This document shows positions 46,232 to 64,000 of a stretch of 64,000 nt of DNA, in pieces. Made by a program: the position numbers and the translations under genes. Every line of letters starts with the position of its first letter. Position 1 is the first letter of the stretch. A model generated the notes under the pieces. That model saw only the letters and a list, made by a program, of their open reading frames with translations, did no database searches and had not been told where the DNA came from. The DNA is from Candidatus Methylomirabilia bacterium (lineage in GTDB: Bacteria > Methylomirabilota > Methylomirabilia > Rokubacteriales > CSP1-6): the NCBI GenBank assembly GCA_041490825.1, contig JBGPTW010000001.1:9478-73477 (forward strand), read 5' to 3'.

Positions 46232-46255
46232 CGTGTGACCTCGTCGGCGTCCCAT

Positions 46256-47370: not shown

Positions 47371-47372
47371 TT

Positions 47373-49003: not shown

Positions 49004-49020
49004 GTCTTTTTCACTCGTTT

Positions 49021-49073
49021 GCGAAAGAGTAGAAGTTAGTATAGGGGTCTAACCTCACAGGACAAACGTTTTC
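49021..49073 (-). promoter_or_regulatory. shared promoter motif, copy at pilM
   Basis: GAAAACGTTTGTCCTGT...CCCCTATACTAACTTCTACTCTTTCGC. Confidence 0.75.
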
Positions 49074-49245
49074 TGATATACCACGCCTTGGGTTTTCGCC
49101 GAGGGATGCCACTACGTCTCGGCGATTTGGCCGTCTTCGGCCGGCTGGCCGTAAGTGCATACCGACGCGTGAACGAGGCCGTGCTACGCGGATCCACCTG
49201 CGTGCCGCGCCGAGCAAGGGGCTCGTCACGCCGTCCGCTGTGGGA

Positions 49246-49345
49246 CTAGTAAACGTGGGGGCCCCGAAATGGCCCCCACACCCCCAGACGCTCGGCGCAC
49301 CCCAGCAAAGCTGTGGCGCGCCTCGATACTCCGACGGGCTCCTAC
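49246..49345. mobile_element. ~100-bp MITE/REP-like element, copy 2
   Basis: CTAG...CTAC ends; direct repeat of 43860-43956. Confidence 0.65.
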
Positions 49346-49620
49346 GGCAAGCGCTGCCGGCAACGCGAAGACGGCGAGTGCGCCCTCGAAGAAGGTGTGG
49401 GCTTGGCGATCTCGCCGGCACATCGGTCTAGGGTCCAGGCACCATCGGACGCTTCTTCCGTTTCATAGTCGGCCGCGCCCGCGGCACGCAAGGAGGGGGC
49501 CAATCCGGAGTCACGGTCCAGGCGAAAAACGCCTCGAACATCGCGCGATTCGAGCCACGGAGCTCGTCGGGTCGCCAGATTGACAAGGACGCCTGGCCAA
49601 AATGCCGGCCAGGGATTCGT

Positions 49621-50253
49621 CTAAAGCTTCGACCGGGATACCGAGACCTTCACCTTTCCGTCCAGCCCGGGTCTTTCGCCGCCAGATACCTTGAACCTCT
49701 GTCTTCCCCCGGGAACGCCGTCGACTTCGGCATCGATCGACCCGGTGCCTGTCACGACTTTCAATCTGCCGGAACCATTCATGGTTGCCGTGGGCGGCAG
49801 CGGTAGGGCGGCGAGCGTGAAGTCCTTGGAGGACACGTCCTTGAAGAAGAGAGTGACCTCTCCGGACTTATAAGAACCTGAAACATAGCCACCGGAAGAC
49901 GTATCCGCCCTGAAGCCGATCTCTGGCTGGAACGATGCGAGGCTCGACAATGTCGGGCCGAGTGTCAACGAGTTGAGCTTCATCATGAACGCTTGCGGGG
50001 CTGGGTCTCCCGGGACTCCCGCGTCGGACGCCTGGTTCGCTACGGACAATCCTGTCAGCCCCAGATCGAGATTCCATCGTATGTGCACCTCGTCGATGGA
50101 AACGCTGGCATGGAGAGTCTGCCCGAGCTTCCCGGCGAGCCAGCTCCTTGCCGTCTCCGCAGGAAAACCCGCGAGGAAGAAGCCCCAGAAGGACCCGATC
50201 CAGAGTGAGGACCAGCCGATGATCGTCACAGACTGCCTGAGGGTGAAACGCAA
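49621..50253 (-). CDS. GspN-like T2SS protein (short)
   Basis: N-terminal TM with FP, beta-rich; last gene of the gsp cluster. Confidence 0.55.
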   Translation of the reverse strand: MRFTLRQSVTIIGWSSLWIGSFWGFFLAGFPAETARSWLAGKLGQTLHASVSIDEVHIRWNLDLGLTGLSVANQASDAGVPGDPAPQAFMMKLNSLTLGPTLSSLASFQPEIGFRADTSSGGYVSGSYKSGEVTLFFKDVSSKDFTLAALPLPPTATMNGSGRLKVVTGTGSIDAEVDGVPGGRQRFKVSGGERPGLDGKVKVSVSRSKL

Positions 50254-51123
50254 TTATTCTTCCTTCCACGCGATGACCCGCACCGACCCACCGTCCCGGC
50301 TGACGAACGCTGAACCTCTCTTGACGACGTCCGCGACTTTCGCTTCCGCTCGAACACGGAAGGTCGAGCTTTTCACGTCGATGACATCGCTGAACGTGTA
50401 GAGAATCTCGTCGTTCATCCCGGACACCTTCTTCACGTCGCCGATCTCTCGAAAAGGATTCTCAATCCTCCGATTGAGGATGCCGTCGATCAGCGCGCCA
50501 CTCAGTTTTGGAGAAAGGGCCGCCAGAACGTCCCGTCCCGCGGTATTGACGTTGATGTTTCGGCCGTTCACGGGATCGGTGTAGACGGTGAGGGAGTTCT
50601 CGACTCTCTTGAATGCCTCGACTGTCAATCCGGGCACCAGGAGGAGCTCGGAGGGGTCTCGGAAGGTATAGGAGGGGTCGGCCCTCTGACTTCTCAGCCA
50701 TTCTGCGACTCTCTGCGCGAGCCCGTCATCGTTGCCAACCGTCTTGAGCAGTCTGCCGAACCGCTCGACGGCCTTGTCGTCGATCTTTCCCTGGGGGGTC
50801 ACGAGCGTGTTGATATTGAATCTCGATGCCTCGTCCTCGATGTGAATGGACACCATTCCGTCTCCGACCGGGAACTGCGTGACGTCTTGTGCCCATACCT
50901 CGGACAGCGCATCGATCGTGCTTTCGCGGGCATCCCGTTCGAGGAACGCCATGGCGGCTGAGATCCCGGACCGCATGATGTAAGCCGCATTGAGCGCATC
51001 GACACTCTGTTTGGCCCTCGTGACCGCCAGAAGGCTGCGGGTATTCATGGCAAGGACCAGGACGGAAAGCATCGCGACGACCAGAAGAGTCATGAGGAGA
51101 GCTATGCCCTTGTCGTTGTTCAC
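50254..51123 (-). CDS. gspK: T2SS minor pseudopilin K
   Basis: KG/IALL.TL, D...E.W, IEDE..RFNIN, ININTA. Confidence 0.9.
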   Translation of the reverse strand: MNNDKGIALLMTLLVVAMLSVLVLAMNTRSLLAVTRAKQSVDALNAAYIMRSGISAAMAFLERDARESTIDALSEVWAQDVTQFPVGDGMVSIHIEDEASRFNINTLVTPQGKIDDKAVERFGRLLKTVGNDDGLAQRVAEWLRSQRADPSYTFRDPSELLLVPGLTVEAFKRVENSLTVYTDPVNGRNINVNTAGRDVLAALSPKLSGALIDGILNRRIENPFREIGDVKKVSGMNDEILYTFSDVIDVKSSTFRVRAEAKVADVVKRGSAFVSRDGGSVRVIAWKEE

Positions 51124-51130
51124 TTCTGCG

Positions 51131-51658
51131 CTACTCCCGTTCCACTGTGTTTGCGATCAGGGTGGCATTGAACGCGGCCGGGTCCTCGTAGGTGGCTTTG
51201 ATGAGGATCCTTTCGACCGCGATGGGATGTCCGTCCGCCTCCAGGGCGCCGATCAATCCGGACAGGTCGGCAAGCGATATCCTCTCGAAGGACATTTCGG
51301 CCTTGATTGCCTTGACGCCGTCGGCAATCGGCTTCGTCGTGGCTTTCACGGACGCCATCTTCTTCTTCAGGCCGGCCTTGACCACGATGGCATCGAGTCC
51401 TGAAAGAGACGCGCCGCTCCCGCTGAAGGCCGTTGTCCTGATGCCATCCAGATCCGTCTTCACGGAGAGATAGTCTCGACCCAGCGACATGACAGAGGCC
51501 AGCCGCTGTCGCTCTTCCGCGGATGTTTTCTCGAGCTGCCTTCCCCGACTGTAGAGCGGGACGTCGACGAACAGCACGATCGAAATGACGACGGCAACGT
51601 ACGCTCCTACGCCGAGCAGGCGCCGGTCTCGCTCGGTCAGGCTTCTCAACAGCGCCAT
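51131..51658 (-). CDS. gspM: T2SS inner membrane protein M
   Basis: L..RDR.LL then TM, coiled coil; gene position. Confidence 0.75.
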   Translation of the reverse strand: MALLRSLTERDRRLLGVGAYVAVVISIVLFVDVPLYSRGRQLEKTSAEERQRLASVMSLGRDYLSVKTDLDGIRTTAFSGSGASLSGLDAIVVKAGLKKKMASVKATTKPIADGVKAIKAEMSFERISLADLSGLIGALEADGHPIAVERILIKATYEDPAAFNATLIANTVERE

Positions 51659-52987
51659 TCACTTCACCTGAACCTTGACCCGAAATCGGTACGTATTGGG
51701 GTCCACGCCCTGGACCAGCTCCTCCACCTGCGCTCCCTGCGCACCGTCGATGGCGGAAAAGAGCTTCTTCAGCCCGTCACTCCCGACACCGCGCCCATCC
51801 CCGATGACCGTGAGGCTGCCCGCCTCGACGGCCGCCTCCCTGACCTTCAGCTCGGGGTGATCAATGACGAGCCTGCCGAGACCGTGCGCGATGGCGAGAT
51901 ATGAAGGAGACGATGCGCCGAGGAGCGCGTCCCTCGTTTGCCGCTCCGAGACCAAGGCAACCTTCAGCTGCGCGTCTTCCTTGACGATATGTTTCACCTG
52001 CGGCATCACCGAGGAAAATACCCGCCTCGACTCGGCCTTCAATGCCGCCACCGCGTCTGACGCCGTCCGGTACCGCACATACGTATCCGCTGTCCCGAGA
52101 ACCAGGACGATCGCGCTTCCGACCGAGAGGATGCGTAACGTCCTCGTGAACGTGCCGTCGTCGGCGTGTACGCCGAGGACGTTGAAGCTCGAGAATTCGG
52201 AAGCGCTCAGCGCTCCGCCAGCGACACCGGCCCAGGCAGGCCATTCCCGGGTGTCGACACCCTTCACGGCCTCAGGGCGAGGTGCGATCTGGGCCATGCG
52301 TGGGAGGAGCGGCAGGACGTGCGCTGCCGCGGCACCGGTCACGTACAGAATGTCGACCTGGTTACCCTCGTTCCGCAGCGGTGTGATGGTCGCCTCGATC
52401 CACGGCACGATGGATCGCCAGTCACCGTCGGTTCTCGTCGACCGCATCGCGAGCGGCCTTCCATCGCCGATGATCACGACGCTCGCCGAGTCGCCGTCGA
52501 TGTCGAGCACTCCGTATATCCCATTGTCGTCATGGCAATGCCGGGCAAGCGATAACAGGGCAATGAAATCCGGGACGATGCGTACGGGTTTCCTTCCGTC
52601 CGGGAACAGCGCCATGTAATCGGCGGCAGTCTTCTTGGGAAGCGCCAGCGCGAACACGACGGTCCCTTTGTCCGAGCGAGCCGCCGGCGCGTTCTCGATG
52701 AGGAGGTCTTCGATGGGGAGAGGGAGGGTTCCGTCCAGCTCCGAGGGGAGAACCTTCCGGATGATTTTCGCATCGGCGAATGGCACCGTGACCGTTCTCG
52801 TCATGAACAGATGGCCAGGCAACACGGCCGTGATCGGAGCATCGGAAGGAAGCTCGGACAAGAGCTCCTCAATGGCGGATGAGGACTGCGTTTTCTCGAC
52901 CTTCATTCTGCCGAATAACGACGAAAACAGCAGGCCTCGGACCTCGTGAGCGCCGATCGCGACGATGATTCCCGTGCTGCGTATCAT
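51659..52987 (-). CDS. gspL: T2SS protein L
   Basis: Actin-like cytoplasmic domain (VPF....I..VLP.EL...LP), TM, periplasmic domain. Confidence 0.75.
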   Translation of the reverse strand: MIRSTGIIVAIGAHEVRGLLFSSLFGRMKVEKTQSSSAIEELLSELPSDAPITAVLPGHLFMTRTVTVPFADAKIIRKVLPSELDGTLPLPIEDLLIENAPAARSDKGTVVFALALPKKTAADYMALFPDGRKPVRIVPDFIALLSLARHCHDDNGIYGVLDIDGDSASVVIIGDGRPLAMRSTRTDGDWRSIVPWIEATITPLRNEGNQVDILYVTGAAAAHVLPLLPRMAQIAPRPEAVKGVDTREWPAWAGVAGGALSASEFSSFNVLGVHADDGTFTRTLRILSVGSAIVLVLGTADTYVRYRTASDAVAALKAESRRVFSSVMPQVKHIVKEDAQLKVALVSERQTRDALLGASSPSYLAIAHGLGRLVIDHPELKVREAAVEAGSLTVIGDGRGVGSDGLKKLFSAIDGAQGAQVEELVQGVDPNTYRFRVKVQVK

Positions 52988-52996
52988 GTCGTCGTC

Positions 52997-53530
52997 CTAC
53001 TTCCTGCTCCACACCGGCATCACGGTGTTGATGTCCTTGCCTTTATACGAGAACGTCACTCTGACTCCAGCCGGAAGTTTGTCGGGCGAAGGCCATTCGT
53101 CCTTCCACTGCCGCCCGTCGAAGAACGAGAACGACGGATCGACGACGTGATCCAGGAGCAGGAAGGTTCGCAGATCGCTCACGGCGAGTCCCGGCTGAAC
53201 GATCTTCCTCAGCAATTTGCCCTGGCCGAACTCGTAGGCCACCGTCTGAACCCAGGGCTTCGTATCCGGGTGGAATGGCGTCAGGACCGTGAAGATGATC
53301 TTGTCATTCGTGCCCGAAAACGCCACAGAGGCGCTCCTCACCTCGTGGCTGAGGGTATCGAGGGCTCCGGTGAGGGACGAGAGCTCGTCCGCTCTCTCGT
53401 CGACGGCGCGGGCGATCACCGCCGACGTCGAGAACGTGCCGAAGAGGATCGTCATCACGATGGACAGGATGCTGAGGGCGATGAGGATCTCGACGAGGGT
53501 GAATCCCCCGGCGGCTCGCCTACCGCCCAT
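52997..53530 (-). CDS. gspJ: T2SS minor pseudopilin J
   Basis: G/FTLVEILIAL, W...W....LP..V. Confidence 0.85.
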   Translation of the reverse strand: MGGRRAAGGFTLVEILIALSILSIVMTILFGTFSTSAVIARAVDERADELSSLTGALDTLSHEVRSASVAFSGTNDKIIFTVLTPFHPDTKPWVQTVAYEFGQGKLLRKIVQPGLAVSDLRTFLLLDHVVDPSFSFFDGRQWKDEWPSPDKLPAGVRVTFSYKGKDINTVMPVWSRK

Positions 53531-53894
53531 AGAGGTACTCGGCGAGCTTCAGCGTTTCGCCTCGGCGTCCTTCATTCCATGAGATCTGGAGGGATAGTTG
53601 CCTTCCGGGGAGCATCGGGACTCCCTGGGGCATGGATTCCGGGGTCGTCCATGTCTCCGTCAGCGTCCACGTATATGGCCCTTCGCTGCCTGTCGTTTCG
53701 CCTCCCGGCACGCCCGTCAATTCTCCTTCGCCCATCAGCCTCTCGGCCACGAGCCTCGCGCCCTCCAGCATCTCCGCGGACTCCGCCATCATCACCGAGC
53801 GACTCTGAAGCGACAGAAGCGCGACCAGCGCGACGGCGATGATGGCGATCGAGACGAGGACTTCCAGCAGTGTGAAGCCTCGCTCAGTCCTCAC
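53520..53894 (-). CDS. gspI: T2SS minor pseudopilin I
   Basis: G/FTLLEVLVSIAI; gene position. Confidence 0.85.
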   Translation of the reverse strand: MRTERGFTLLEVLVSIAIIAVALVALLSLQSRSVMMAESAEMLEGARLVAERLMGEGELTGVPGGETTGSEGPYTWTLTETWTTPESMPQGVPMLPGRQLSLQISWNEGRRGETLKLAEYLYGR

Positions 53895-54354
53895 GGACTT
53901 CGAACCTCTCCCCGAGAGCGGGAATCACGACGGTGTAGGCCGTTCCACCCGTGCCCGAGAGTGTGATCGACGCCTCGTCCCTGAATCCGGACGGAAAGAA
54001 GCTGATCGACACCAGTCCCGTCGTCACAGGCTCGGTGCCGATCACCACATTCCGGATGAAGACCCGGCTCGGCACGCGCGACCTCACGCCGCCATCTCCG
54101 TCCCAGTATTCACGGCTGTCCAGATCCAGCGTGAGGACGCGCTTCTCCTTCGTGAAGAGGGCTTCGTCCGAGAGCCGCCTGACGGTATAGACGAGTCTCC
54201 TGGCTGAGCCCTTGAGCTCCGCGGTCTCTCCTCCCGCGAGCTTTGGCACCACATACGACAGCGTGATCGCGAGGATGCTGAGAACGACCAGCAGCTCGAC
54301 GAGAGTGAAGCCGCGGGTCGCAGCGTCACATGTTCCAGCTTTGGAGGTCGGCAT
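53884..54354 (-). CDS. gspH: T2SS minor pseudopilin H
   Basis: G/FTLVELLVVL, FFPSG. Confidence 0.85.
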   Translation of the reverse strand: MPTSKAGTCDAATRGFTLVELLVVLSILAITLSYVVPKLAGGETAELKGSARRLVYTVRRLSDEALFTKEKRVLTLDLDSREYWDGDGGVRSRVPSRVFIRNVVIGTEPVTTGLVSISFFPSGFRDEASITLSGTGGTAYTVVIPALGERFEVRED

Positions 54355-54769
54355 CCTTACCGTCGCCCTCGGGTCCGAGGGAATAAAGGTCGAACGTCCC
54401 GTGCTCTCCGGGCGACAGATATTGATACGGCCTGCCCCACGGATCACTGGAAGCCTTGGAGAGATAGCCTCCCTCTTTCCATCTTCGGGGGAGCGGGGCA
54501 ATGTCCGGCTTTCTGACGAGAGCCTCGAGCCCCTGCTCAGTCGTCGGATAGGCTCCGTTGTCGAGCTTGTAGAGATTCAACGCACCTTCGATGCCCTTGA
54601 TGTCGACCTGCGCCTTGGTCTTCTTCGCTTCCTCAGGCCTGCCCATGATTCTCGGGACGATGATGCCGGCCAGAATGGCAAGGATGACGACGACGATCAT
54701 GACTTCGATGAGCGTGAATCCTCGTGAGTCGCGCGGCGCGCGGCGCACAGCCAGGTCGCCCATCGTCAT
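54326..54769 (-). CDS. gspG: T2SS major pseudopilin G
   Basis: G/FTLIEVMIVV, YKLDNG.YPTTEQGL.AL, DPWG.PY.Y..PG. Confidence 0.96.
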   Translation of the reverse strand: MTMGDLAVRRAPRDSRGFTLIEVMIVVVILAILAGIIVPRIMGRPEEAKKTKAQVDIKGIEGALNLYKLDNGAYPTTEQGLEALVRKPDIAPLPRRWKEGGYLSKASSDPWGRPYQYLSPGEHGTFDLYSLGPEGDGKDADLQSWNM

Positions 54770-55980: not shown

Positions 55981-55995
55981 AGGGTTGGAGAGACC

Positions 55996-57480
55996 TCATT
56001 CCTCCTGCATGACCCGCAGAACCTCTTCGATCGACGTCGTTCCCGACAGCACCTTCTCCGCGCCGTCGACGATCATCTTCTTCATCGCCTTCTTGTCGGC
56101 TTCCGTCCTGATGCTCCTGGAATCCCCCCCCTGCAGGATGACCTTGCGTATGTCGTCGTCGATCTCGAGCAACTCATAGACGCCGTTTCGGCCGAGATAG
56201 CCCGTCCCGAGGCATTCATCGCAGCCACCCCGACGGTACAGGATCTGATGAACTGGCCGCGACGTGTGGCCCACGACGCCCAAGACCCGAAGATCATCGG
56301 CGCCCGGCTCGTAGTGCTCCCGACATCGAGGACAGAGCACTCGTATCAACCGCTGGGCGATCACCCCGATGAGGGACGACGAGACGAGGAAGGGCTCGAT
56401 CCCCATGTCGACGAGTCTGGTGACTGCTCCGGCTGAATCGCTCGTATGCAGGGTCGAGAGCACCAGGTGCCCCGTGAGGGCGGCCTGGATGGCCATGTCG
56501 GCGGTCTCTCTGTCCCTGATCTCGCCGACCATGATGATGTCGGGATCCTGCCGAAGGATGTGCCTCAATCCTCGGGCAAACGTCAGTCCGACCTTCGGGT
56601 TCACCTGCATCTGTCCGATCTGTTTCAGCTGATACTCGATGGGATCCTCGACCGTCAGGATGTTCTTCTCGGACGAGTTCATGGAGGAAAGCGACGCATA
56701 CAGCGTCGTCGTTTTTCCACTTCCGGTCGGGCCCGTGATGAGGATGATTCCATTGGTCCTGTTGATGAGCCTCGAGTAACGCCGAAGCATCCCGGTCGCG
56801 AGCCCGAGATCCTCGAGGCCGATCATGACGCGCTCGCGATCGAGGAGCCTCAGGACGAGACGTTCTCCAAAGGCCGTCGGGATGGTGGACGCCCTGATGT
56901 CCACGTCGCGTCCGGCGATCCTGACCCGTATTCCTCCATCCTGGGGAAGTCGCCGCTCCGCCACATCCATGCCGGCGATGACCTTCGCCCTGGACACCAC
57001 GGAACGATACAGTCCCTTCGGGATGGACTGGATCTCGTGCAGGATCCCGTCGACCCGGAACCGGACCTTCGCCTCGGTCGCCAGCGGCTCGAAATGAATG
57101 TCGCTGGCCCTCTTCTGCAGGCCTCGCGAGAGCAAGGCGTTGACCAGCCGGACGGCCGGCGCCTCGTCGTCAGACCATTCGAGAAGATCTTTGCTCTCTT
57201 CGACGGCTGAGACGTCGTCGATCACGAACGTCGCGTGTTCGTCGCTGGCGGCTTCGTGGTAGACCTTGTTGATCAGGTCGAGCAGTTCCCGTTCATCCAT
57301 GAACATCGCTCGGACCGGAGCATTGAGGATGTGTCGGAGATCGTCGATGGGCTGAAAGTCGTCAGGGTGAGACGACGCCACGACCACCGTGTCTCCCTCG
57401 GTCCTGATCGGTAAGAGCGAGAACCTCTTGGCGTACGAGAACGAGACGTGCTTCAGGAGGGATCTATCGATATCCGTCAT
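55996..57480 (-). CDS. gspE: T2SS ATPase E
   Basis: ASDIH.EP, GPTGSGKTTTLY, LRQDPDIIMVGEIRD, tetracysteine motif. Confidence 0.96.
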   Translation of the reverse strand: MTDIDRSLLKHVSFSYAKRFSLLPIRTEGDTVVVASSHPDDFQPIDDLRHILNAPVRAMFMDERELLDLINKVYHEAASDEHATFVIDDVSAVEESKDLLEWSDDEAPAVRLVNALLSRGLQKRASDIHFEPLATEAKVRFRVDGILHEIQSIPKGLYRSVVSRAKVIAGMDVAERRLPQDGGIRVRIAGRDVDIRASTIPTAFGERLVLRLLDRERVMIGLEDLGLATGMLRRYSRLINRTNGIILITGPTGSGKTTTLYASLSSMNSSEKNILTVEDPIEYQLKQIGQMQVNPKVGLTFARGLRHILRQDPDIIMVGEIRDRETADMAIQAALTGHLVLSTLHTSDSAGAVTRLVDMGIEPFLVSSSLIGVIAQRLIRVLCPRCREHYEPGADDLRVLGVVGHTSRPVHQILYRRGGCDECLGTGYLGRNGVYELLEIDDDIRKVILQGGDSRSIRTEADKKAMKKMIVDGAEKVLSGTTSIEEVLRVMQEE

Positions 57481-59824
57481 TCTTGTCGCGGCCGTCCATC
57501 TGTTCCCGGGATTTCTCGAGCTCTCTCCGTTTCTTCTCCGTGATCTCGCCGAGGGTCGAGTCCTTCACGATCGTCGGCGTGATGAATATCAGAAGGTTCG
57601 TCTTCTCGTCTTGCCGATTGTAGTAGCGGAATAGCCAACCCAGAATGGGGATGTCCCCCAGGAGAGGGACTTTGCTGCGTAGCCTGGTCGAGTTGTCCTT
57701 GATCAGGCCGCCGATGGCGATTGTTTCTCCATCCTTGGCGACGACGGTGGTGCTGGCATACCTCTTGTTGATGACCGGGCCGATCTTGTTCGGATCGAAG
57801 CCGACCTCCTGGGTTAGCGAGGATATCTCCTGATAAATGTCCAACTTCACGAAATTGCCTTCGGTGACGCGAGGGGTGAGCCTCAGCGTGATGCCGACGT
57901 CTTTTCGGTCGACGGTGGTGAGGACGTTTCCGCCCGAGGTTTGGCTCTGCCCCGAGACGAACGGGACGTTTTCGCCGACGACGATCTCCGCCTTCTGGTT
58001 GTCGGTCGTCAGCAGGTGAGGGGTGGAGAGAACGTTGACGCCTTTCTCGGTCTGCAACGCCCTGACAAAGGCCAGGACGTTCACGAACTGCACTCCATTG
58101 AAGGTGATGAAACCCTTCACGACACCGGCGGCCAGACCGGACAGGCCAGCCAGGCCTGACGGTCCTTGGGAAGCGGCGGCAATGCCGCCGAAGCTGGTGC
58201 CGGCGAAGCCGGTCGTCGATCCACTGCTCGGAACGGTATCGCCGAGCTTGAACTCGACTCCCAGTTCCCTCAGCTTGGTGTCGGAAATCTCGATGATCGC
58301 GGCTTCGACGTACACCTGTCGCCGCCGGATATCGAGCTGCTTGATGACCTGCTTCAGAGCATCGTAATCCTCGGGCGCTGCGACGATGACGAGGGAGTTC
58401 CTGGCCTTGTCCGCGGTGACGGTGACCGGCCCGGTCAGTGTCACGCTGATAGGGAGCTGACCTGGTTGGGTCGATTGAGCCGGTTGCCTCGCGAAAAGGG
58501 TCGTGAGCGTCTTCGCGATGTCTTCCGCCTCGGCATACTCCAGCGGATAGACGTTGATCTTTCCTTCCTGTCTGCGTTTGACGTCGAGCTTTGCAATGAC
58601 GTCCTTCATCACGGCGTAATCTTCCGGCGCTGCCACGACGATCACGGCGTTCCTGGTCTTGTCGGCGGTGACGCTGACCGGGCCGGTGAGCGTCGCGCGC
58701 ATGCCCGGTGGCGCAACTGGTTGCGTGGGCTGCTGTCTGGAAAACACCGCCGTTAGGCTCTTGGCGATTTCTTCGGCATCGGCGTTGTCCAGGGTGTAGA
58801 CGTGCAGCTCGGCTTTTCCGCGCGGCGGTTCCTTGTCGAGGCCGGACAGCACGGAGGCGAGCCGCTCGACGTTTCTCGCCGCGTCGGTGAGGATGATGGT
58901 GTTCGTCTGGAGATCGGCACTGACCACGCCATTCCTCGACACCAGAGGGGTCAGAATCCGGATCGCTTCATTGGCGTTGAGATAACTCAAAGGAATCAAG
59001 CGGGTGACGAATCCTTCACCGCTTCCCTTCGATACGACCTCGGTCCAGTTCTGTCTCGCCTCGCTGAGGGGGATGATCTGAATGAGATCGTCGGCAGGCA
59101 CGGCAGCGTAGCCCTTGAATTGGAGAATTTCGAGGAGCAGTTGGTACAACTCCTCGACGGGAACGTCTTTCGGCGTGATGACCGTGACCTTTCCCGTGAC
59201 CCTCTCGTCGAAGACGAAATTCTTGCCGGTGACGTCGCTGACCAGCCGGATGAAGACCGGAAGCTCGACGTCCTTGAAGTCGACCTTCACGGCTTTCGGG
59301 CGTTGCGACGGCTTTGCCTCACGGACCGAACGACGCTCGACGTCGACAGCCTGAGCGGAAGAGGCCACGATCGCTGCCGGCGTGGTGGACGAGCGTGCCA
59401 GCGAACGGTCCGTAATCGCCCCGGCGGCGGGCCGCGGCATGACGATGCTCAGGCCCGTCGGATCGCTGTGAATTGCATACTCGGAGCGACCCGTCAGCTC
59501 GACGATGACTCGGGTGACACTCTTGCGGTACTGCGTGCCGTGAATCTGCTTGACTGGCTCCGTTCCCACGACGAGTGGCGTGGCCTGCCAGCCGTAGGTC
59601 GTTTCCTGGAGGTCCAGCACGAGCCGCGGAGGGGAATCCAGCAGCCTGGCGCGATATTTCGGGAGGCTCGAGATCTCGAGATGGACGGTGACCGCCTCCG
59701 GCTCGGCCGCCACGGTCACGTCGATCAGCCGAGCCGTTGCTGCCGGGTCGCCCGAGGCGACGACGGCGAGAAGCACCACCAGGGCGAGGCTGATCGGGAA
59801 CGTGGCCCCTCGTTGGGCCGCCAC
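57464..59824 (-). CDS. gspD: T2SS secretin D with N-terminal AMIN domain
   Basis: N0 (F.DV.L..FI..VS..TG.NF), QVYVEA.I.E, RKDVGITL, KVPLLGDIP.LG.LF. Confidence 0.93.
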   Translation of the reverse strand: MAAQRGATFPISLALVVLLAVVASGDPAATARLIDVTVAAEPEAVTVHLEISSLPKYRARLLDSPPRLVLDLQETTYGWQATPLVVGTEPVKQIHGTQYRKSVTRVIVELTGRSEYAIHSDPTGLSIVMPRPAAGAITDRSLARSSTTPAAIVASSAQAVDVERRSVREAKPSQRPKAVKVDFKDVELPVFIRLVSDVTGKNFVFDERVTGKVTVITPKDVPVEELYQLLLEILQFKGYAAVPADDLIQIIPLSEARQNWTEVVSKGSGEGFVTRLIPLSYLNANEAIRILTPLVSRNGVVSADLQTNTIILTDAARNVERLASVLSGLDKEPPRGKAELHVYTLDNADAEEIAKSLTAVFSRQQPTQPVAPPGMRATLTGPVSVTADKTRNAVIVVAAPEDYAVMKDVIAKLDVKRRQEGKINVYPLEYAEAEDIAKTLTTLFARQPAQSTQPGQLPISVTLTGPVTVTADKARNSLVIVAAPEDYDALKQVIKQLDIRRRQVYVEAAIIEISDTKLRELGVEFKLGDTVPSSGSTTGFAGTSFGGIAAASQGPSGLAGLSGLAAGVVKGFITFNGVQFVNVLAFVRALQTEKGVNVLSTPHLLTTDNQKAEIVVGENVPFVSGQSQTSGGNVLTTVDRKDVGITLRLTPRVTEGNFVKLDIYQEISSLTQEVGFDPNKIGPVINKRYASTTVVAKDGETIAIGGLIKDNSTRLRSKVPLLGDIPILGWLFRYYNRQDEKTNLLIFITPTIVKDSTLGEITEKKRRELEKSREQMDGRDKNDGYR

Positions 59825-60030
59825 GTCAGTCGGTTGCCAGCTTCAGGGTCACGCGGCTTGTCTTCGACCCCGCTGGCGTGATCGTGAACATCGGGCTGCC
59901 TGCCGCCGTTTCAGAGATACGACCGTCGCCGAGTGGTTCGGCAGTGTGAGGACCGGACGTCAAAACCGAAAATTCGCTTCCGGTACAGGAGCCCCCATGG
60001 CAAACGGATCGTCGTCACCCCGGTGCGGCC

Positions 60031-60068
60031 TAGTATAGGGGGCGCCGGCGCGCGGCCCAACGGTTTTC
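60031..60068 (-). promoter_or_regulatory. shared promoter motif, copy at gspD
   Basis: GAAAACCGTTGGGC...CCCCCTATACTA. Confidence 0.65.
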
Positions 60069-60098
60069 TTGGCAGGGCGTCGTTGCAGGCCTCGCGTG

Positions 60099-60875
60099 CT
60101 AACGGATCTCGATATTCGCGGTCTCGCGTCTTCCGTTGCGACTGTAGTCCAGGGCGATTTTCGGCTGATTCCGTATCTGCTGGAATAGCTGGTAGAGCGC
60201 ATCCGGGCTCTTGATCTCGACGCCGTTCACTCTCTCGACGACGTCGTTGTTCTGGAGGCCCAGCTTGGTGTAGAAGCTCGCGGGGGCGATGTCGAAGATC
60301 GTGTAGCCGGCTATCTTTCCGCCAACCAGGTAGGGAACCACTCTCGCCTGGGTCATGACCTTGTTGAGGTCCGACAGCGCGCCTTCCACGTCCCGTGGGT
60401 CGAGCCGTATCCCCGCTCGCATCGAGGGAGTTGCGCCGATCCCCTGCGGGTTCGGAGGCTCGCCGTCCACGAACTTCACCTCCACGACTGCCTTTTGGTC
60501 TCCGTTCTTCAAGACAACCCTGTTCACGCCGATCTCATCGATGAGCCAGCCGCCACCGACGTCGTCCCTGAGCCTATAGAGTTCCTGTGCCTTACCGGCC
60601 GGGGCAAGGATCACTGCGGACGGATAGGCTCCGGTTGTCGTACCGATGAGCTTCACCGGCGGCGCAGGTCCTACAGCAGGCTGAGCCGCGATTTGCGCTT
60701 CAAGGACGCGAGGGGGCAAGGACCGAACCGGCGTCCCGACCGCTCGAGGCATGACAAACGAAGGGGGCCGTTGCAAGGCCCCCTTGACGACGGTATTCAC
60801 GAGGTCCGCGGCAATGAACGTCGAGACGACGACGAAGCAGAAGGTCAACAACGGATTGAGCAGCCGCGACGTCAA
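60099..60875 (-). CDS. gspC: T2SS protein C (TM-HR-PDZ)
   Basis: TM, KLIGT..G...SAVI HR domain, PDZ LGLQNNDVV..VNG. Confidence 0.88.
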   Translation of the reverse strand: MTSRLLNPLLTFCFVVVSTFIAADLVNTVVKGALQRPPSFVMPRAVGTPVRSLPPRVLEAQIAAQPAVGPAPPVKLIGTTTGAYPSAVILAPAGKAQELYRLRDDVGGGWLIDEIGVNRVVLKNGDQKAVVEVKFVDGEPPNPQGIGATPSMRAGIRLDPRDVEGALSDLNKVMTQARVVPYLVGGKIAGYTIFDIAPASFYTKLGLQNNDVVERVNGVEIKSPDALYQLFQQIRNQPKIALDYSRNGRRETANIEIR

Positions 60876-60941
60876 GAGTTGGCCGGGTTACCGATACGCC
60901 AGCGGCCCGCCATCACTCTGTCTCGATCTCTCCTCTTCGCT

Positions 60942-62987
60942 CTACTTTGGAGTCTCTGTGGTACAGTCCGAGCTCTGCCCGAAGGGACTTACGACGCCAG
61001 GCGGCAGGAGACTCGCCGAGGTCACATCCCCGAACGCAACAGGCAGAGTGAACGTCGTGGACGATGTCCCTTCGGTGCCCGAGACCGACGCTCTCGCCGT
61101 CAACGTGACGACAGTCCAGTCGGCGAATTGTTTGGCATACGTGATGGTCGCCAGGGCCGAGCCATTGCTGTCCGTCGCGGCCACCGTATTGACGCTCGCG
61201 ACGTTGCCCGGTGTCAGTTGGCCGTCGTTATTCGTGTCCTCGCCTGGATCCAGGATACCGTTGAAATTGGTGTCCTCATTGAGGCAGGACGCCGAAACAA
61301 TCGGTAACCACTGCGATAAGCTCACCAGAGCCCCGCACACCAACGGGTTGATCGGGGGAGGGGCCGGCGGTGTCGGGGGTGGGTTGTTCAGGATGCAGAA
61401 GACCCGCACTCCTTTGAAGTAGGCGAAGGGTGGGTCGGATGTCGCCTGTGCCGGCCGCACCGTGAACTGGACCGTGGCACCAGGCACGGGATTTCCCGCG
61501 GCATCGGTCACCAGCGCTGAGTAGCGTTTCTGGTAGTTCAAGCCGGCGGACGCCAAGGTGTTATCGGTGCCGAGGCGCACGAACAGCGGCTGTCCGCCCA
61601 CGGTGAGCGTTGTCTGATTCGACACACCGGTCACCGGCACCCCGCCGAGATCGGTGACGGTGGCGGTAATGACAATGGCGTTCCCGGAGGGATTCGGACC
61701 GCAGCAGGTGACGGTGCCGGCAACGTAGGTGACCGCCGCAACCCCGGAGGCGTCGGTGATGGCCGAGGGCGACGTCAGGCTGCCGCCGCTGGGATCGTTC
61801 GTGATCGAGAAATTCACCCGGGCGTTCTTCACGAGATTGTCCGCGGCATCGCGCACGACCGCGGTGATCGTCGACGTATTGGCCGACGAGCCAACCAGGT
61901 TGACTGGCACCGTGGACGGGTTCGCCTGGACGTCCACTCGACTCACCGACGTCGCGACGAAGGTCACGTTGACGGAGTTCACGGGGGTACCGCCCGGTCC
62001 GGCCGCAGTGATAGTCGCCGGGCCGGCGGATGTCGACGATATGGTCACCGTCGCGTTGCCGGCACTGTTTGTCGTCGCAGGGCTACCCGTGAGGGCGCCC
62101 CGTGTCGCGGAGAAGGACACGGCGGCTCCGGCCACGGGCACGCCACTCTGGTCCCAGTGGACCGTCAGCGTGGCCGGTTTCCCGACCGGGAGTTCAGTGC
62201 CGCTCGCCGGTGCAGTGAAGCCGAAATTGGCGGCACTGACGGTGAGCGCGAAGGTCTTCGTCACCCCGATGCCAGAGGCGGTGATCGTGTCACTGCCCGC
62301 CTTCGTGCCTGTGACGGTGGTGGTGAACTGGCCAGTGGCGTCCGTCGTTCCGGACGCGGGTGTCAGGGTATTACCCGCTGCGGACGTGACCGTGATGGGG
62401 GCGTTCGATATCCCATTGCCCACCGAATCCTTCGCGGTGATGGTCAATGGTGTGGCGTTGCCGAAAACGAGCGAGCTGTTGCCGGAGATATTCACGGTGG
62501 TGCCGATGACGTTCACGCTGTTCGTTGCCGTGATGCCATCAGCGGTCGCGGTGAGCGTGATCGTGCGGTTGCCTTTGTTGGTGCCGAGATTGAGCTTGGC
62601 GATCACCTTGCCATTGGCGTCCGTAACGCCGCTGGAGCTGATGTCGCTGAGAAATGCCTTCGGGGCGACATCCGTGACCGAGAGCGTCACCGTCTTGCCG
62701 GTGATCGTTCGGCTGTTCGCGTCCAGGACGACGGCGGTCACGTCGACCGTGCTGGCGCCCGACGACGGGAGATTGGGGGAGCTGACGAGGAGCTCCTCCG
62801 CGGCGGCAGGCGGAGGTGGGGGGGTGCCGGTTCCTCCCGTACCGCCGGTCGCGCCGGTCCCGCCCGTTCCCGCGCTGGCGGTGGATCCGCCGCCCCCGCC
62901 TCCGCCGCAGCCTCCCAGCAGGCCGAGAAGGGCGCCCGTGACGAGCAGCAGACGCACCGATGTCCAGGCGGAGCCAGTCGTTAGCAT
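60942..62987 (-). CDS. lipoprotein with tandem bacterial Ig-like (Big_1/invasin-like) domains
   Basis: Lipobox LGGC plus poly-Gly; repeated D..GN.V.G..V.F / TD..G.A modules; EDTN.NG.LD.GEDTN.DG; AAGGAG SD. Confidence 0.85.
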   Translation of the reverse strand: MLTTGSAWTSVRLLLVTGALLGLLGGCGGGGGGGSTASAGTGGTGATGGTGGTGTPPPPPAAAEELLVSSPNLPSSGASTVDVTAVVLDANSRTITGKTVTLSVTDVAPKAFLSDISSSGVTDANGKVIAKLNLGTNKGNRTITLTATADGITATNSVNVIGTTVNISGNSSLVFGNATPLTITAKDSVGNGISNAPITVTSAAGNTLTPASGTTDATGQFTTTVTGTKAGSDTITASGIGVTKTFALTVSAANFGFTAPASGTELPVGKPATLTVHWDQSGVPVAGAAVSFSATRGALTGSPATTNSAGNATVTISSTSAGPATITAAGPGGTPVNSVNVTFVATSVSRVDVQANPSTVPVNLVGSSANTSTITAVVRDAADNLVKNARVNFSITNDPSGGSLTSPSAITDASGVAAVTYVAGTVTCCGPNPSGNAIVITATVTDLGGVPVTGVSNQTTLTVGGQPLFVRLGTDNTLASAGLNYQKRYSALVTDAAGNPVPGATVQFTVRPAQATSDPPFAYFKGVRVFCILNNPPPTPPAPPPINPLVCGALVSLSQWLPIVSASCLNEDTNFNGILDPGEDTNNDGQLTPGNVASVNTVAATDSNGSALATITYAKQFADWTVVTLTARASVSGTEGTSSTTFTLPVAFGDVTSASLLPPGVVSPFGQSSDCTTETPK

Positions 62988-63087
62988 GGAGACTCCTTGA
63001 CGGCGCTGGAGCCGATGCCCAGCCCCGAGATCCCCAACTGCCTGTTCTTTTCGAGGAACATTAGTTGAACGTGTCCACCGCTCACGA

Positions 63088-63140
63088 GCGGAAGAGTAGC
63101 AAGTAGTATAGGGGCCCGGCCGTACACGGCAAAAGTTTTC
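63088..63140 (-). promoter_or_regulatory. shared promoter motif, copy at the Ig-like lipoprotein
   Basis: GAAAACTTTTGCCGTGT...CCCCTATACTACTTGCTACTCTTCCGC. Confidence 0.75.
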
Positions 63141-63226
63141 CGTCACGGCGTGTGGGCGGGGTCCCGTCTCAGAGTGTCCCGATCGATCCCTGATCCGCGG
63201 ACGTTCCCGGCCGTCAGGGATGGCCG

Positions 63227-63733
63227 TCACGGATAGAGGATGGTGATCCGGCCGGAGGTGGCCACGCGGACGGTCGCGGTCTGATTCGTCGTGGGGTTCC
63301 GGACCTTGAAGTCGCCTGACGTGCCCGCCGGTGGGGAGGCGGCACCGAGCGCCGTGAAGACGACGCCGGTGGCTGGCGCCCCGACTTGAACGGCGTTCGA
63401 GAGCGTGATCGATCCATCGCTCGCGGTCCCTGTCCCGGTCCACGCAGCAGCCGAGCAGACCGAGAGGTGATACGTGATCTTCGTCCCGTAATTCGGGGAC
63501 GTGCCGTTGCTCGTGATGCAGACCGGCACGTTCGCCCGGATCGCCAGTCCTCGGGCTCCGTTCAAGATCGTCACGAGTTCCTGGGCGCCCGCCTTCAACG
63601 TCGATGTCTGCCAGTAGCTGATGAAGAGCGGCATGCTGACCGCGGTCACCACGGCCAGCACAGCCACGACGATCACCAGCTCGATGATCGTGTAGCCGCG
63701 GCGACCTAACTGGCAAATCCGCTCAGGTACCAT
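63227..63733 (-). CDS. FimT/FimU-like minor type IV pilin
   Basis: G/YTIIELVIVVAVL, L..AR..AI..N..V, V.F...G, V..SGRI. Confidence 0.85.
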   Translation of the reverse strand: MVPERICQLGRRGYTIIELVIVVAVLAVVTAVSMPLFISYWQTSTLKAGAQELVTILNGARGLAIRANVPVCITSNGTSPNYGTKITYHLSVCSAAAWTGTGTASDGSITLSNAVQVGAPATGVVFTALGAASPPAGTSGDFKVRNPTTNQTATVRVATSGRITILYP

Positions 63734-64000
63734 CGCGCGATTCTATCGCCCCATAGGAGACCGGTCGCACCACCGACAGCAAGGAAGGGGCCAAAGGGGA
63801 TTGGATCCTTGCGCCGCATACGTCCGGACAGGAGAAAGACCGTCGCACAAATTCCTCCGAGCATCACGGCGACGAACAGGGAAACGAGCGTGATTTTCCA
63901 GCCGAGGAACGCGCCGAACATCGCGGCCAGCTTCATGTCTCCACCACCCATCCCGCGGCCCGCCGTCGCCAGGATGATCACGAAGAAGATTCCGCCGCCC
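63706..64000 (-). CDS. pilD: prepilin peptidase, C-terminal part
   Basis: GMGGGDMKLAAMFGAFLGW, IPFGPFLA; truncated by the window edge. Confidence 0.93.
   Translation of the reverse strand, partial: GGGIFFVIILATAGRGMGGGDMKLAAMFGAFLGWKITLVSLFVAVMLGGICATVFLLSGRMRRKDPIPFGPFLAVGGATGLLWGDRIARWYLSGFAS

What the first reader, a model, noticed from the sequence alone, without database searches (positions are those of the whole stretch)
49021..63140. One bipartite promoter motif heads the T4P operon, the T2SS operon and the Ig-like lipoprotein: a candidate novel regulon
Seen on the minus strand. pilM: GAAAACGTTTGTC-N13-CCCCTATACTAACTTCTACTCTTTCGC. Lipoprotein: GAAAACTTTTGCC-N13-CCCCTATACTACTTGCTACTCTTCCGC; this matches pilM at 23/27 and 11/13 with identical spacing. 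gspD: GAAAACCGTTGGG-N14-CCCCTATACTA. The spacer is only partly conserved (TGT in two copies), which points to selection on the boxes. TTG...TATACT fits sigma70-family geometry, and CCCC before the -10 recalls RpoH-type promoters. Inference: a dedicated sigma factor or activator co-induces pilus, secretion system and adhesin (an attachment, predation or competence programme).
Basis: partly seen in the sequence, partly recalled or inferred. Interest (0 to 1): 0.78.

Follow-up and report, generated by a model that had tools for sequence, protein, structure and literature searches.

The report
Copied pilus promoter drives acquired secretion genes
Three near-identical promoters in a Rokubacteria genome are copies of that phylum's conserved pilM promoter, and two of them were duplicated along with scraps of pilus genes and now sit in front of a foreign type II secretion cluster and an adhesin-like lipoprotein.

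Summary
CCCCTATACTA occurs three times in the window and nowhere else in the 6.44 Mb genome. Each copy lies 13-14 nt downstream of a GAAAAC..TTG box.

The motif is the conserved pilM promoter of Candidatus Rokubacteria: GGAAAAYR-TTGGYC-N17-19-CCTATACT-ACT, with sigma-70 geometry. A profile built only from relatives finds one strong site in each of 17 related genomes, always in front of pilM. In this genome it finds exactly three.

The two extra copies arose by duplication.
- The lipoprotein copy carries the pilM 5'UTR and about 24 decayed pilM codons.
- The gspD copy is followed by a pilP 3' remnant and a PilQ-type AMIN domain fused to GspD.
- A pilD remnant lies at the far end of the inserted block.

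The T2SS genes and the lipoprotein were not found in 40 relatives. The closest T2SS matches are in Deltaproteobacteria, Nitrospinae and Nitrospirota MAGs, none of which carries the motif.

In the pilM/lipoprotein pair the boxes stayed 22/24 identical while flanks fell to 75/125, which argues that this extra copy still works.

So co-regulation of pilus platform, T2SS and lipoprotein is plausible, through promoter reuse within one locus. A genome-wide regulon or a dedicated sigma factor is not supported. No transcript data exist.

The parts
49037..49073 (-). P(pilM), the resident pilM promoter. A-tract/-35 box GAAAACGTTTGTC at 49073-49061; TTTGTC-N17-TATACT; -10 box CCCCTATACTA at 49047-49037; 34 nt from the -10 hexamer to the pilM ATG.
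   Evidence: 32.0 bits; E 1e-4. Homologous position and sequence in 49 of 72 relatives' pilM loci.
43958..49003 (-). pilM (47942-49003), pilN (47373-47942), pilO (46768-47376), pilP (46256-46771), pilQ (43958-46255).
   Evidence: Pfam PilM_2, PilN, PilO, and Secretin+AMIN for PilQ. pilP is named by position and has no Pfam hit.
49436..49612 (-). Decayed pilD (prepilin peptidase) 3' fragment between the gspN stop and P(pilM). It marks the right-hand end of the duplicated pilD..pilM segment.
   Evidence: three collinear blastn matches to the genome's own pilD (78% over 68 nt, E 2.5e-10; 83% over 29 nt; 71% over 72 nt), and tblastn E 3e-5; 76-81% identity to relatives' pilD DNA.
49621..57480 (-). 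gspE (55996-57480), gspF, gspG, gspH/I/J-like pseudopilins, gspL, gspM, gspK, and an unassigned 210-aa last gene (49621-50253).
   Evidence: Pfam T2SSE, T2SSF, T2SSG, N_methyl, T2SSJ and T2SSK above cut-off; GspL_C and T2SSM below cut-off.
57464..59824 (-). gspD, a chimeric secretin. Residues 1-137 are a PilQ-type signal peptide plus AMIN domain. From about residue 166 it is a GspD N0/N1-3/secretin like that of Deltaproteobacteria and Nitrospinae MAGs.
   Evidence: 43% identity to own PilQ, E 2e-30; 42-49% in the 12 best-scoring relatives' matches, on pilM-locus contigs; non-Rokubacterial GspD matches start at residue 113-192 in the loci not cut at the contig end.
59829..59939 (-). pilP 3' remnant (last 38 codons, then the stop) lying in the gspD 5'UTR just before the gspD GTG.
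   Evidence: tblastn with PilP residues 134-171: 17/38 identical, E 2e-8.
60029..60068 (-). P''(gspD), a promoter copy between the gspC stop (60099) and gspD. GAAAACCGTTGGG at 60068-60056; TTGGGC-N17-TATACT; CCCCTATACTA at 60041-60031; about 200 nt of 5'UTR.
   Evidence: 26.6 bits; E 0.0098 and 4.4e-4. The generic scan does not flag it, because its -35 is weak.
60099..60875 (-). gspC (PDZ).
   Evidence: Pfam PDZ_2 and T2SSC, both below cut-off. 60% identity to GspC of L125, in the same gene order.
60942..62987 (-). Lipoprotein of 681 aa with five Big_1 (invasin/intimin-type Ig-like) repeats and a lipobox LLGGC.
   Evidence: Big_1 E 1.4e-44. Translation. No homologue at E<=1e-10 in 40 relatives.
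62995..63097 (-). Remnant of the pilM 5'UTR plus about 24 pilM codons (ATG changed to ACG, an in-frame TAA, indels). It now forms the lipoprotein 5'UTR, and its last codons supply the AAGGAG ribosome site.
   Evidence: (score 27; 0 of 500 shuffles). Also 84-94% identity to relatives' pilM codons 11-20, for example L076 93.5% over 31 nt, E 3.8e-8.
63100..63142 (-). P'(lipoprotein), a promoter copy. GAAAACTTTTGCC at 63140-63128; TTTGCC-N17-TATACT; CCCCTATACTA at 63114-63104.
   Evidence: 43.0 bits, the best match in the genome to the relatives' profile; E 1.1e-6.
63227..64000 (-). Intact left-hand copy of the flank: GspH/FimT-like pilin (63227-63733) and prepilin peptidase pilD (63706 onwards; it runs off the window to about 64566).
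   Evidence: GspH, N_methyl; same pilD - pilin - pilM order in L072, L078, L079, L081, L092 and L015.

Best explanation
The three sites are paralogous copies of one ancestral element, the pilM promoter of Candidatus Rokubacteria.

Structure of the element. It is a sigma-70-family promoter with a weak -35 (TTGGYC or TTTGTC), a 17-19 nt spacer and an invariant -10 (TATACT). It also has lineage-conserved extras: an A-tract GGAAAAYR abutting the -35, CC at -14/-13, and A(CT) after the -10.

Distribution. In relatives it occurs once per genome, in front of pilMNOPQ.

What happened in this genome. An accessory block was inserted between the pilD-pilin genes and pilM. The block holds a Big_1 lipoprotein and gspC-N. 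Its closest gspC-G relatives lie outside Rokubacteria. The block is framed by decayed direct repeats of the pilD..pilM-5' segment, so a second promoter copy (with a pilM stub) now reads into lipoprotein-gspC. A third copy lies in front of gspD. It is followed by a pilP 3' stub and a PilQ-type AMIN domain fused to GspD, which looks like a collapsed second pil operon.

Inferred mechanism. The same RNA polymerase holoenzyme, and whatever factor reads the extra conserved bases, initiates about 7 nt downstream of each TATACT. The pilus assembly platform, the acquired T2SS and the lipoprotein would then be switched together.

Shown: the motif, its uniqueness, its conservation, the duplicated flanks, the foreign affinity of the T2SS genes, and the differential preservation of the boxes in the pilM/lipoprotein pair.
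Inferred: promoter activity, start sites, co-regulation, and which sigma factor is used.
For: Uniqueness:
- 3 of 3 genomic CCCCTATACTA lie here.
- The PWM built only from relatives gives 43.0, 32.0 and 26.6 bits, against 12.2 for the next site and 14.9 for the control.

Conservation:
- 49 of 72 relatives' pilM loci carry the element (45 distinct sequences). Spacer is 17 nt in 29, 18 nt in 4 and 19 nt in 12 (alignment A1).
- Model R1 finds one hit at E<0.01 in each of 17 of 60 relatives, and all 17 lie directly upstream of pilM. Only G000 has three.

Sigma-70 geometry and contrast with housekeeping promoters:
- tRNA promoters here read TTGACA/TTGACT-N16-18-TAnnnT without an A-tract.
- 27 of 167 TATACT have TTG at N16-18, including sites before groES, GAPDH and RNase Y. 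Only these three have GAAAA upstream.

Duplication:
- pilM/lipoprotein homology downstream of the boxes scores 27, with 0 of 500 shuffles reaching it.
- The stub matches relatives' pilM.
- pilP stub E 2e-8; AMIN graft; pilD stub; synteny pilD-pilin-pilM in relatives.

Foreign block:
- gspD has at best 35% identity in 2 of 40 relatives. The lipoprotein is found in 0 of 40.
- Closest gspC-D-E-F are in 33 loci, mainly Deltaproteobacteria, Nitrospinae and Nitrospirota MAGs and none titled Rokubacteria, with GspE up to 75% identical. None of the 33 has the motif.
- GC is 60-63% in the block against 64-70% (mostly 66-68%) over the first 46 kb of the window.

Selection on the boxes: 22/24 against 75/125 identical, Fisher one-sided p=0.0016.

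Real arrangement: contigs from sediment metagenome runs not flagged as the possible source bridge each promoter.
Against: - There are no transcript data. No RNA run holds the locus, so neither promoter activity nor start sites are shown.
The family alignment defines them independently, but the test is still small.
- The pilM stub behind the gspD copy is only suggestive (18/24 nt; 29 of 500 shuffles reach its score). Descent of that copy rests mainly on the neighbouring pilP and AMIN pieces.
- 12 of 45 relatives' promoters have a 19-nt spacer, which is long for a plain sigma-70 -35/-10 pair. The A-tract/TTGG box may therefore be read by something other than sigma region 4.
- No same-genus genome was available, so neither the order nor the date of the events can be fixed.
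Confidence: 0.75

Rival explanations
1. One reading: the boxes are read by a dedicated alternative sigma factor or activator that defines an attachment, predation or competence regulon. This partly overlaps the best explanation, because a specific factor could read the copied promoters.
For: - Positions outside the housekeeping consensus are strongly conserved in 45 sequences: A-tract 44-45/45, C(-13) 45/45, and TATACT invariant including its middle bases.
- The element is unlike the TTGACA-type promoters of tRNA and other genes here.
- C(-13)+TATACT is the core of the E. coli sigmaS extended -10, TCTATACTTAA (passages of PMC3367168).
- The genome encodes RpoD, two RpoD-like paralogues below the RpoD cut-off, a 305-aa RpoS/SigA-like sigma and 12 further sigma-70-family genes.
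Against: - There is one site per genome in 17 relatives and no further site in this genome. That is a single operon, not a regulon.
- No sigma or regulator gene lies in the part of the cluster that I annotated (window 39.7-64 kb) or on contig C1.
- The extra copies are explained by duplication.
- The short sigma is conserved across the whole order, including lineages whose pilM promoter is TTGACT-N17-CATACT. Its presence therefore does not track the motif.
- Spacing does not fit ECF, sigma-54 or sigma-32 consensus (consensus sequences recalled from memory).
Confidence: 0.2
2. The extra copies are neutral relics of the duplications and are not used. The T2SS genes are transcribed from elsewhere or are silent.
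For: - Both copies sit among decaying pil fragments.
- There is no expression evidence.
Against: - In the lipoprotein copy the boxes are 22/24 identical while the co-duplicated flanks are 75/125.
- Around the gspD copy the co-duplicated sequence has decayed almost beyond recognition, yet the boxes still score 26.6 bits.
- Each copy lies in the only non-coding gap upstream of its unit.
- In 46-64 kb the generic scan flags no other sigma-70-like site on either strand.
- All T2SS reading frames are intact.
Confidence: 0.1
3. Assembly or binning artefact: the repeated 40-50 nt element caused a chimeric join of a Rokubacterial pil locus with a foreign T2SS contig.
For: - The genome is a 261-contig MAG with 4.3% estimated contamination.
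- The block has lower GC and non-Rokubacterial best matches.
Against: - Contigs from other sediment metagenome runs span the joins: gspN-pilM (X8 record 17, 47500-49820), gspC-gspD (X8 record 21, 56524-60554; X7 record 14; X9 record 30), and the pilin-lipoprotein join (X7 record 16, 62672-63800).
- The block contains Rokubacteria-type pieces inside it: the promoter copies, the pilP stub and the PilQ-type AMIN domain.
Confidence: 0.02

Closest known systems
Promoter reuse, capture or propagation in prokaryotes (Nijveen, Matus-Garcia and van Passel 2012, PMC3575422; I read the abstract and opening paragraph)
   Same: Highly similar promoter sequences lie upstream of non-homologous genes in one genome. 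This rewires the regulation of newly placed genes without a known mobile element.
   Different: Here the route is visible: the copies still carry stubs of the genes they came from (pilM, pilP, pilQ-AMIN, pilD). The source promoter is a phylum-conserved, single-copy element. The recipients are an acquired T2SS block and a lipoprotein inserted next to the source operon.
E. coli sigmaS-type extended -10 (TCTATACTTAA; C(-13) contacted by K173; passages of PMC3367168)
   Same: C at -13 directly before TATACT, a degenerate -35, tolerance of 17-19 nt spacers, and an A/T start to the discriminator.
   Different: Position -14 is C, not T. An A-tract abuts the -35. The organism is not a proteobacterium. 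Its closest RpoS-like protein scores below the NCBIfam RpoS cut-off (310.8 against 378.7 bits) and is as close to Firmicute SigA as to RpoS. There is one site per genome rather than a stress regulon.
Housekeeping sigma-70 promoter with a proximal UP-element subsite (A-tract; adenines at -41 to -43 matter in rrnB P1; passage of PMC4390567)
   Same: TTG at -35, N17, TAnnnT at -10, and an A4 run at about -41 to -38 where alpha-CTD binds in E. coli.
   Different: The -35 departs from the TTGACA used by tRNA and other promoters in this genome. The A-tract is short and flanked by conserved G. The middle -10 bases are invariant, which plain sigma-70 recognition does not require.
CRP-S/Sxy (TfoX) competence regulon of Pasteurellaceae and Vibrionaceae, where one site type heads the pilMNOPQ-homologous com operon and other uptake genes (recalled, not checked here)
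   Same: A shared upstream element would co-induce a pilMNOPQ-type operon with other envelope machinery.
   Different: No palindromic CRP-like site is present. There are no further sites at pilA, pilB or com genes. The sharing here arose by copying one promoter within one locus.

Membership tests
Sigma-70-family (group 1/2) promoter | -35 TTGnnn and -10 TAnnnT separated by 16-18 nt | tested here: met
   In G000, TTTGTC, TTTGCC and TTGGGC each lie 17 nt from TATACT. Two of the three pass the generic 9/12 scan. Among relatives, 33 of 45 have N17-18 and 12 of 45 have N19.
Sigma-70-family (group 1/2) promoter | Located in a non-coding gap at a workable distance upstream of the gene it serves | tested here: met
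   34, 117 and 207 nt from the -10 hexamer to the start codons of pilM, the lipoprotein and gspD. In relatives the distance to pilM is about 19-42 nt in most loci and 77 nt in one.
Sigma-70-family (group 1/2) promoter | Transcription start 5-9 nt downstream of the -10 hexamer | not testable with these tools
   No RNA run holds the locus.
E. coli-type sigmaS-selective promoter | C(-13) with a TATACT-like -10 and a degenerate -35 | tested here: met
   C(-13) in 45/45 and TATACT in 45/45 relatives, and in all 3 G000 copies. The -35 is TTGGYC or TTTGTC. The consensus comes from PMC3367168.
E. coli-type sigmaS-selective promoter | An RpoS orthologue whose region 3.0 lysine (K173) reads C(-13) | tested here: inconclusive
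   The best candidate (C69, 305 aa) is below the RpoS cut-off and is equally close to SigA chains. I did not check the residue equivalent to K173 with a tool alignment.
E. coli-type sigmaS-selective promoter | Many such promoters forming a general stress regulon | tested here: not met
   The full element is single-copy in 17 relatives and is limited to this locus in G000.
RpoH (sigma-32) promoter (consensus CTTGAAA-N13-14-CCCCATNT, recalled) | Conserved CCCC before the -10, a CTTGAA -35, and an RpoH gene | tested here: not met
   Only the two C next to TATACT are conserved. The two before them read A11/C21/G11/T2 and A12/C17/G8/T8. The -35 is TTGGYC. No protein reaches the rpoH_proteo cut-off; the best scores 168.6 against 323.1 bits.
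Reused or duplicated promoter (promoter propagation) | Near-identical promoter upstream of non-homologous genes, with evidence of common descent | tested here: met
   The downstream genes are pilM, a Big_1 lipoprotein and gspD. Homology extends into the co-duplicated pilM, pilP and pilD stubs.
Regulon (one factor, several dispersed transcription units) | Sites at several unlinked loci, conserved across relatives | tested here: not met
   All three sites lie within 14 kb. There are no others in 6.44 Mb. Relatives have one site each.

The most novel reading that the evidence does not exclude
The Rokubacteria-wide pilM promoter may be a dedicated switch. It could be read by a lineage-specific factor, either a group-2 sigma with a sigmaS-like preference for C(-13)TATACT or an activator on GGAAAAYRTTGG. 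On this reading, the genome has deliberately wired a foreign T2SS and an Ig-like adhesin into that pilus switch. It did so in two ways: by copying the promoter twice, and by grafting the PilQ AMIN (peptidoglycan-anchoring) domain onto the foreign secretin. Pilus and secretion machine would then be made at the same time and placed at the same envelope site.
Probability: 0.25. Interest if true: 0.6.

Novelty: new member of a known kind. Interest (0 to 1): 0.42.

Why it matters
- It gives a readable, step-by-step example of how a horizontally acquired multi-gene machine is plugged into a host circuit. Native promoter copies, still attached to stubs of their source genes, sit in front of the foreign operon, and a native targeting domain is fused to the foreign secretin.
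- It defines the first candidate promoter consensus that I know of for an uncultivated phylum. My only search for prior work was (a two-of-three-terms search, listing only), and none of the 10 papers listed describes Rokubacterial promoters. The consensus is GGAAAAYR-TTGGYC-N17-19-CCTATACT for pilM, against TTGACA-N17-TAnnnT for tRNA genes.
- This consensus can guide annotation and heterologous expression of Rokubacteria genes.
- It corrects an attractive but over-broad reading (a novel regulon with its own sigma factor) into a testable, local one.

Tried and rejected
- Exact and degenerate pattern searches in 60 relatives found either nothing or only pilM sites. They were superseded by the profile search.
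- Rfam search at E<=1 over 48.8-64 kb gave no riboswitch or leader in the long 5'UTRs. The only hit was a chance CsrC match at 15.6 bits.
- Transcript evidence: no RNA holder was listed for the locus, so start sites and expression could not be examined.
- Phylogenetic profile of the short RpoS/SigA-like sigma against promoter type was uninformative. The sigma is found in 56 of 61 genomes across the order.
- ECF, sigma-54 and sigma-32 readings were rejected on spacing and on which positions are conserved. The consensus sequences were recalled from memory, not taken from a call.
- I looked by eye for a CRP/FNR-like palindrome around the A-tract and found no consistent inverted repeat across relatives. 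This was not formally tested.
- A stringent local alignment found only the boxes for pairs involving gspD. A lenient alignment of the sequence downstream of the boxes gave 18/24 nt, with 29 of 500 shuffles reaching the score. I treat this as suggestive only.
- My crude GC3-based gene caller covered only 74% of the genome and mis-called low-GC3 genes in the island. I did not use it for any count.
- Earlier findings of this scan: three look-ups returned nothing.
- Supplementary files of the cited papers were not consulted.

Full report
**1. The observation**

- CCCCTATACTA occurs three times in the window against 0.02 expected, and no shuffle of 100 reached three.
- These three are the only copies in the 6.44 Mb, 261-contig genome G000.
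- Each is preceded by GAAAAC-N1-2-TTG.
- With the -10 read as TATACT, the -35 hexamers are TTTGTC (pilM), TTTGCC (lipoprotein) and TTGGGC (gspD), all at 17 nt.
- A generic sigma-70 scan of 46-64 kb flags only two sites on either strand, and they are the pilM and lipoprotein sites. The gspD site misses the threshold because its -35 is weak.

**2. Gene context**

- Pfam confirms pilM, pilN, pilO and pilQ. pilP is named by position only and has no Pfam hit.
- Upstream lie gspE, F, G, the pseudopilins, K, L and M, plus an unassigned last gene.
- gspD is a secretin with an N-terminal AMIN domain. gspC has a PDZ domain (weak matches).
- The lipoprotein is 681 aa with five Big_1 repeats and a lipobox.
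- Beyond it lie a GspH/FimT-like pilin and the prepilin peptidase pilD.
- Record titles of the closest pilM loci identify the organism as Candidatus Rokubacteria (Rokuibacteriota/Methylomirabilota).

**3. What the motif is**

I took the sequence upstream of pilM from 72 related loci: 21 from the genome search and 51 from named MAG records.
- 49 of them carry the same element, giving 45 distinct sequences.
- The consensus is GGAAAAYR-TTGGYC-spacer-CCTATACT-ACT. The spacer is 17 nt in 29, 18 nt in 4 and 19 nt in 12 (alignment A1).
- More distant genera of the family have GAAAAnnTTGACn-N17-TATAAT. A sister family has TTTTAAAAnTTGACT-N17-CATACT.
- So this is a sigma-70-type promoter with an upstream A-tract that has drifted within the order.

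A weight matrix built from the 45 relatives' sequences alone, with G000 left out, was run over the G000 genome.
- It scores 43.0 bits at the lipoprotein, 32.0 at pilM and 26.6 at gspD.
- The next best site scores 12.2. The best site in the reversed genome scores 14.9.

A sequence-only Infernal model of A1 (R1) was run on 60 relatives.
- It gives exactly one hit at E<0.01 in each of 17 genomes.
- 12 of these coincide with the pilM loci. The other 5 were checked and also lie directly upstream of pilM.
- G000 is the only genome with three hits (E 1.1e-6, 0.0023, 0.0098).
- Two of the 17 genomes (G009, G022) are flagged as unpublished. Without them the count is 15, and nothing changes.

**4. How it differs from ordinary promoters of this genome**

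- Of the 18 of 49 tRNA genes with a scored upstream site, those scoring 9-10 of 12 mostly show TTGACA or TTGACT at N16-18 from TAnnnT, 8-18 nt before the mature 5' end. None has a GAAAA run.
- Of the 167 TATACT in the genome, 27 have TTG at N16-18. These include sites before groES, GAPDH, RNase Y and several small antitoxin-like genes, mostly with TTGAC-type -35 hexamers.
- Only the three sites studied here have GAAAA upstream.
- TATACT is therefore a usual good -10 here. The special features of the pil element are its weak -35, the A-tract with flanking G, and the invariant C(-13).

**5. Origin of the extra copies**

The similarity between the pilM and lipoprotein sites does not stop at the boxes.
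- When only the sequence downstream of the 11-mer is aligned, the score is 27. Shuffles have mean 8.8 and maximum 17, and 0 of 500 reach it.
- The alignment runs through the pilM 5'UTR and about 24 codons. It ends at 62995, eight bases before the lipoprotein ATG.
- In the copy the ATG is ACG, codon 4 is TAA, and there are indels.
- The stub also matches relatives' pilM codons 11-20 at 84-94% (L076 93.5% over 31 nt, E 3.8e-8).

Behind the gspD copy:
- The last 38 codons of a pilP, followed by the stop, lie just before the gspD start (17/38 identical, E 2e-8).
- GspD residues 1-137 are a PilQ-type AMIN domain, 43% identical to G000 PilQ. In the 12 best-scoring relatives' matches, which lie on the contigs of the pilM loci, identity is 42-49%.
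- In the loci not cut at the contig end, the closest non-Rokubacterial GspD proteins match only from residue 113-192 onward, and the intergenic gap there leaves no room for the domain.
- A possible pilM stub between promoter and pilP stub is only suggestive (18/24 nt; 29 of 500 shuffles reach its score).

At the far end of the block, between the gspN stop and the pilM promoter, lies a decayed pilD fragment (three collinear matches to the intact pilD, best E 2.5e-10).

The closest relatives have the order pilD - pilin - about 580 nt - promoter - pilM. The inserted block in G000 is therefore framed by two decayed copies of the pilD..pilM-5' segment. The left copy keeps pilD, the pilin, the promoter and a pilM stub. 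The right copy keeps a pilD stub, the promoter and pilM. This pattern would arise from integration by a single crossover of DNA that carried such a segment. It would equally arise from a tandem duplication with an insertion. The data do not decide between the two.

**6. The block is accessory and probably foreign**

- gspD finds at best 35% identity in 2 of 40 relatives. The lipoprotein finds nothing at E<=1e-10 in 40.
- Among one genome per species of 185,579 species, the 33 loci that encode a relative of this GspD are mainly Deltaproteobacteria, Desulfuromonadales, Nitrospinae and Nitrospirota MAGs. A few are titled Bdellovibrionota, Myxococcia or Proteobacteria, and none Rokubacteria.
- The best of them share the gspC-D-E-F-G order, with GspE 75%, GspF 72% and GspC 60% identical.
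- None of the 33 carries the promoter element.
- GC is 60-63% across the block against 64-70% (mostly 66-68%) over the first 46 kb of the window.
- Contigs from other sediment metagenome runs bridge gspN-pilM, gspC-gspD and pilin-lipoprotein. This excludes a chimeric assembly.

**7. Are the copies used?**

In the pilM/lipoprotein alignment the two boxes are 22/24 identical. The spacer, 5'UTR and coding stub together are 75/125 identical (Fisher one-sided p=0.0016).

Around the gspD copy the co-duplicated sequence has decayed almost beyond recognition, yet the boxes still match the relatives' profile.

Each copy sits in the only non-coding gap before its unit, and all T2SS frames are open. I take this as purifying selection on working promoters. 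It remains an inference, because no RNA run holds the locus.

**8. Which factor reads it?**

The geometry fits a group-1 or group-2 sigma. G000 has the following sigma genes:
- RpoD;
- two RpoD-like paralogues below the RpoD cut-off;
- a 305-aa sigma closest to RpoS models but below their cut-off, and as close to Firmicute SigA chains as to E. coli RpoS;
- 12 further sigma-70-family genes;
- no RpoH above cut-off.

C(-13) followed by TATACT is the core of the E. coli sigmaS extended -10, where C(-13) gives sigmaS selectivity (passages of PMC3367168).

The A-tract falls at about -41 to -38. This overlaps the place where adenines of the rrnB P1 proximal UP subsite matter (passage of PMC4390567).

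Either reading, or an unknown activator, could explain the conserved extra bases. The N19 spacers in 12 of 45 relatives argue that the upstream box is not a simple -35.

None of this makes a regulon. The element is single-copy in relatives and confined to one locus here. The 'RpoH-like CCCC' is not conserved beyond the two C adjacent to the -10.

**9. Comparison and verdict**

The closest known phenomenon is promoter reuse or capture (PMC3575422, abstract and opening paragraph). This case is a clear new example. The route is preserved in the stubs, the source is a phylum-conserved promoter, and the recipient is an acquired secretion system that also received a native AMIN domain.

The inference of co-regulation is reasonable. 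The proposal of a novel regulon with its own sigma factor is not supported.

Interest is moderate. This is a tidy evolutionary mechanism and a first promoter consensus for an uncultivated phylum, not a new kind of system.

Noticed in passing
window 57464-59824 (gspD), residues 1-165: The T2SS secretin is a chimera. A Rokubacterial PilQ-type signal peptide plus AMIN domain is fused to a GspD body whose closest relatives (Deltaproteobacteria and Nitrospinae MAGs) lack that domain.
   Followed up: partly
window 49132-49675, especially 49229-49439: Summed contig depth rises 10-50 fold in four sediment runs. Strain variants in two runs lack 211 nt (49229-49439). Several 'goes back' joints fall at 49244-49345. 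A GC-rich hairpin (GTGGGGGCC..GGCCCCCAC) lies at about 49250-49280. This looks like a dispersed repeat in the pilM upstream gap.
   Followed up: no
window 52011-53814: In three runs a contig form joins 52011 to 53814 with 34 other letters between (depth 8-19). If it comes from this organism, it would remove part of gspL, all of gspJ and part of gspI. It may instead come from another organism (table 5c).
   Followed up: no
relatives' pilM loci (L044-L094), about 10-30 nt upstream of the A-tract: A second conserved block (CCAAGCCTTGTGTG or AATGTAGTACGTG) and a GC-rich hairpin precede the promoter in many Rokubacteria. The block is partly recognisable before the G000 pilM and lipoprotein copies, but not before gspD.
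   Followed up: no
G000 contigs C25, C29, C2, C69: There are three RpoD-like sigma genes (one true RpoD and two paralogues of 470-500 aa) plus a 305-aa RpoS/SigA-like sigma. The last is conserved in 56 of 61 genomes of the order.
   Followed up: partly
window 39753-43804: pilQ is followed by aroC (chorismate synthase, Pfam). After that come ORFs that, by my reading of the translations alone, look like aroB, a TPR protein, efp and accB. This would be the pilMNOPQ-aro linkage known from proteobacteria (recalled).
   Followed up: no
L094 (record titled Chloroflexia) and L046, L053, L083 (titled Gemmatimonadales, Binatia, Acidoferrum): Several MAG records with Rokubacteria-type pilM (64-69% identity) carry other phylum labels, which may be mis-binned or mislabelled contigs. 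In L046 and L053 I also saw the Rokubacterial promoter. L083 shows no such element. In L094 the -10 part of the promoter is missing.
   Followed up: no
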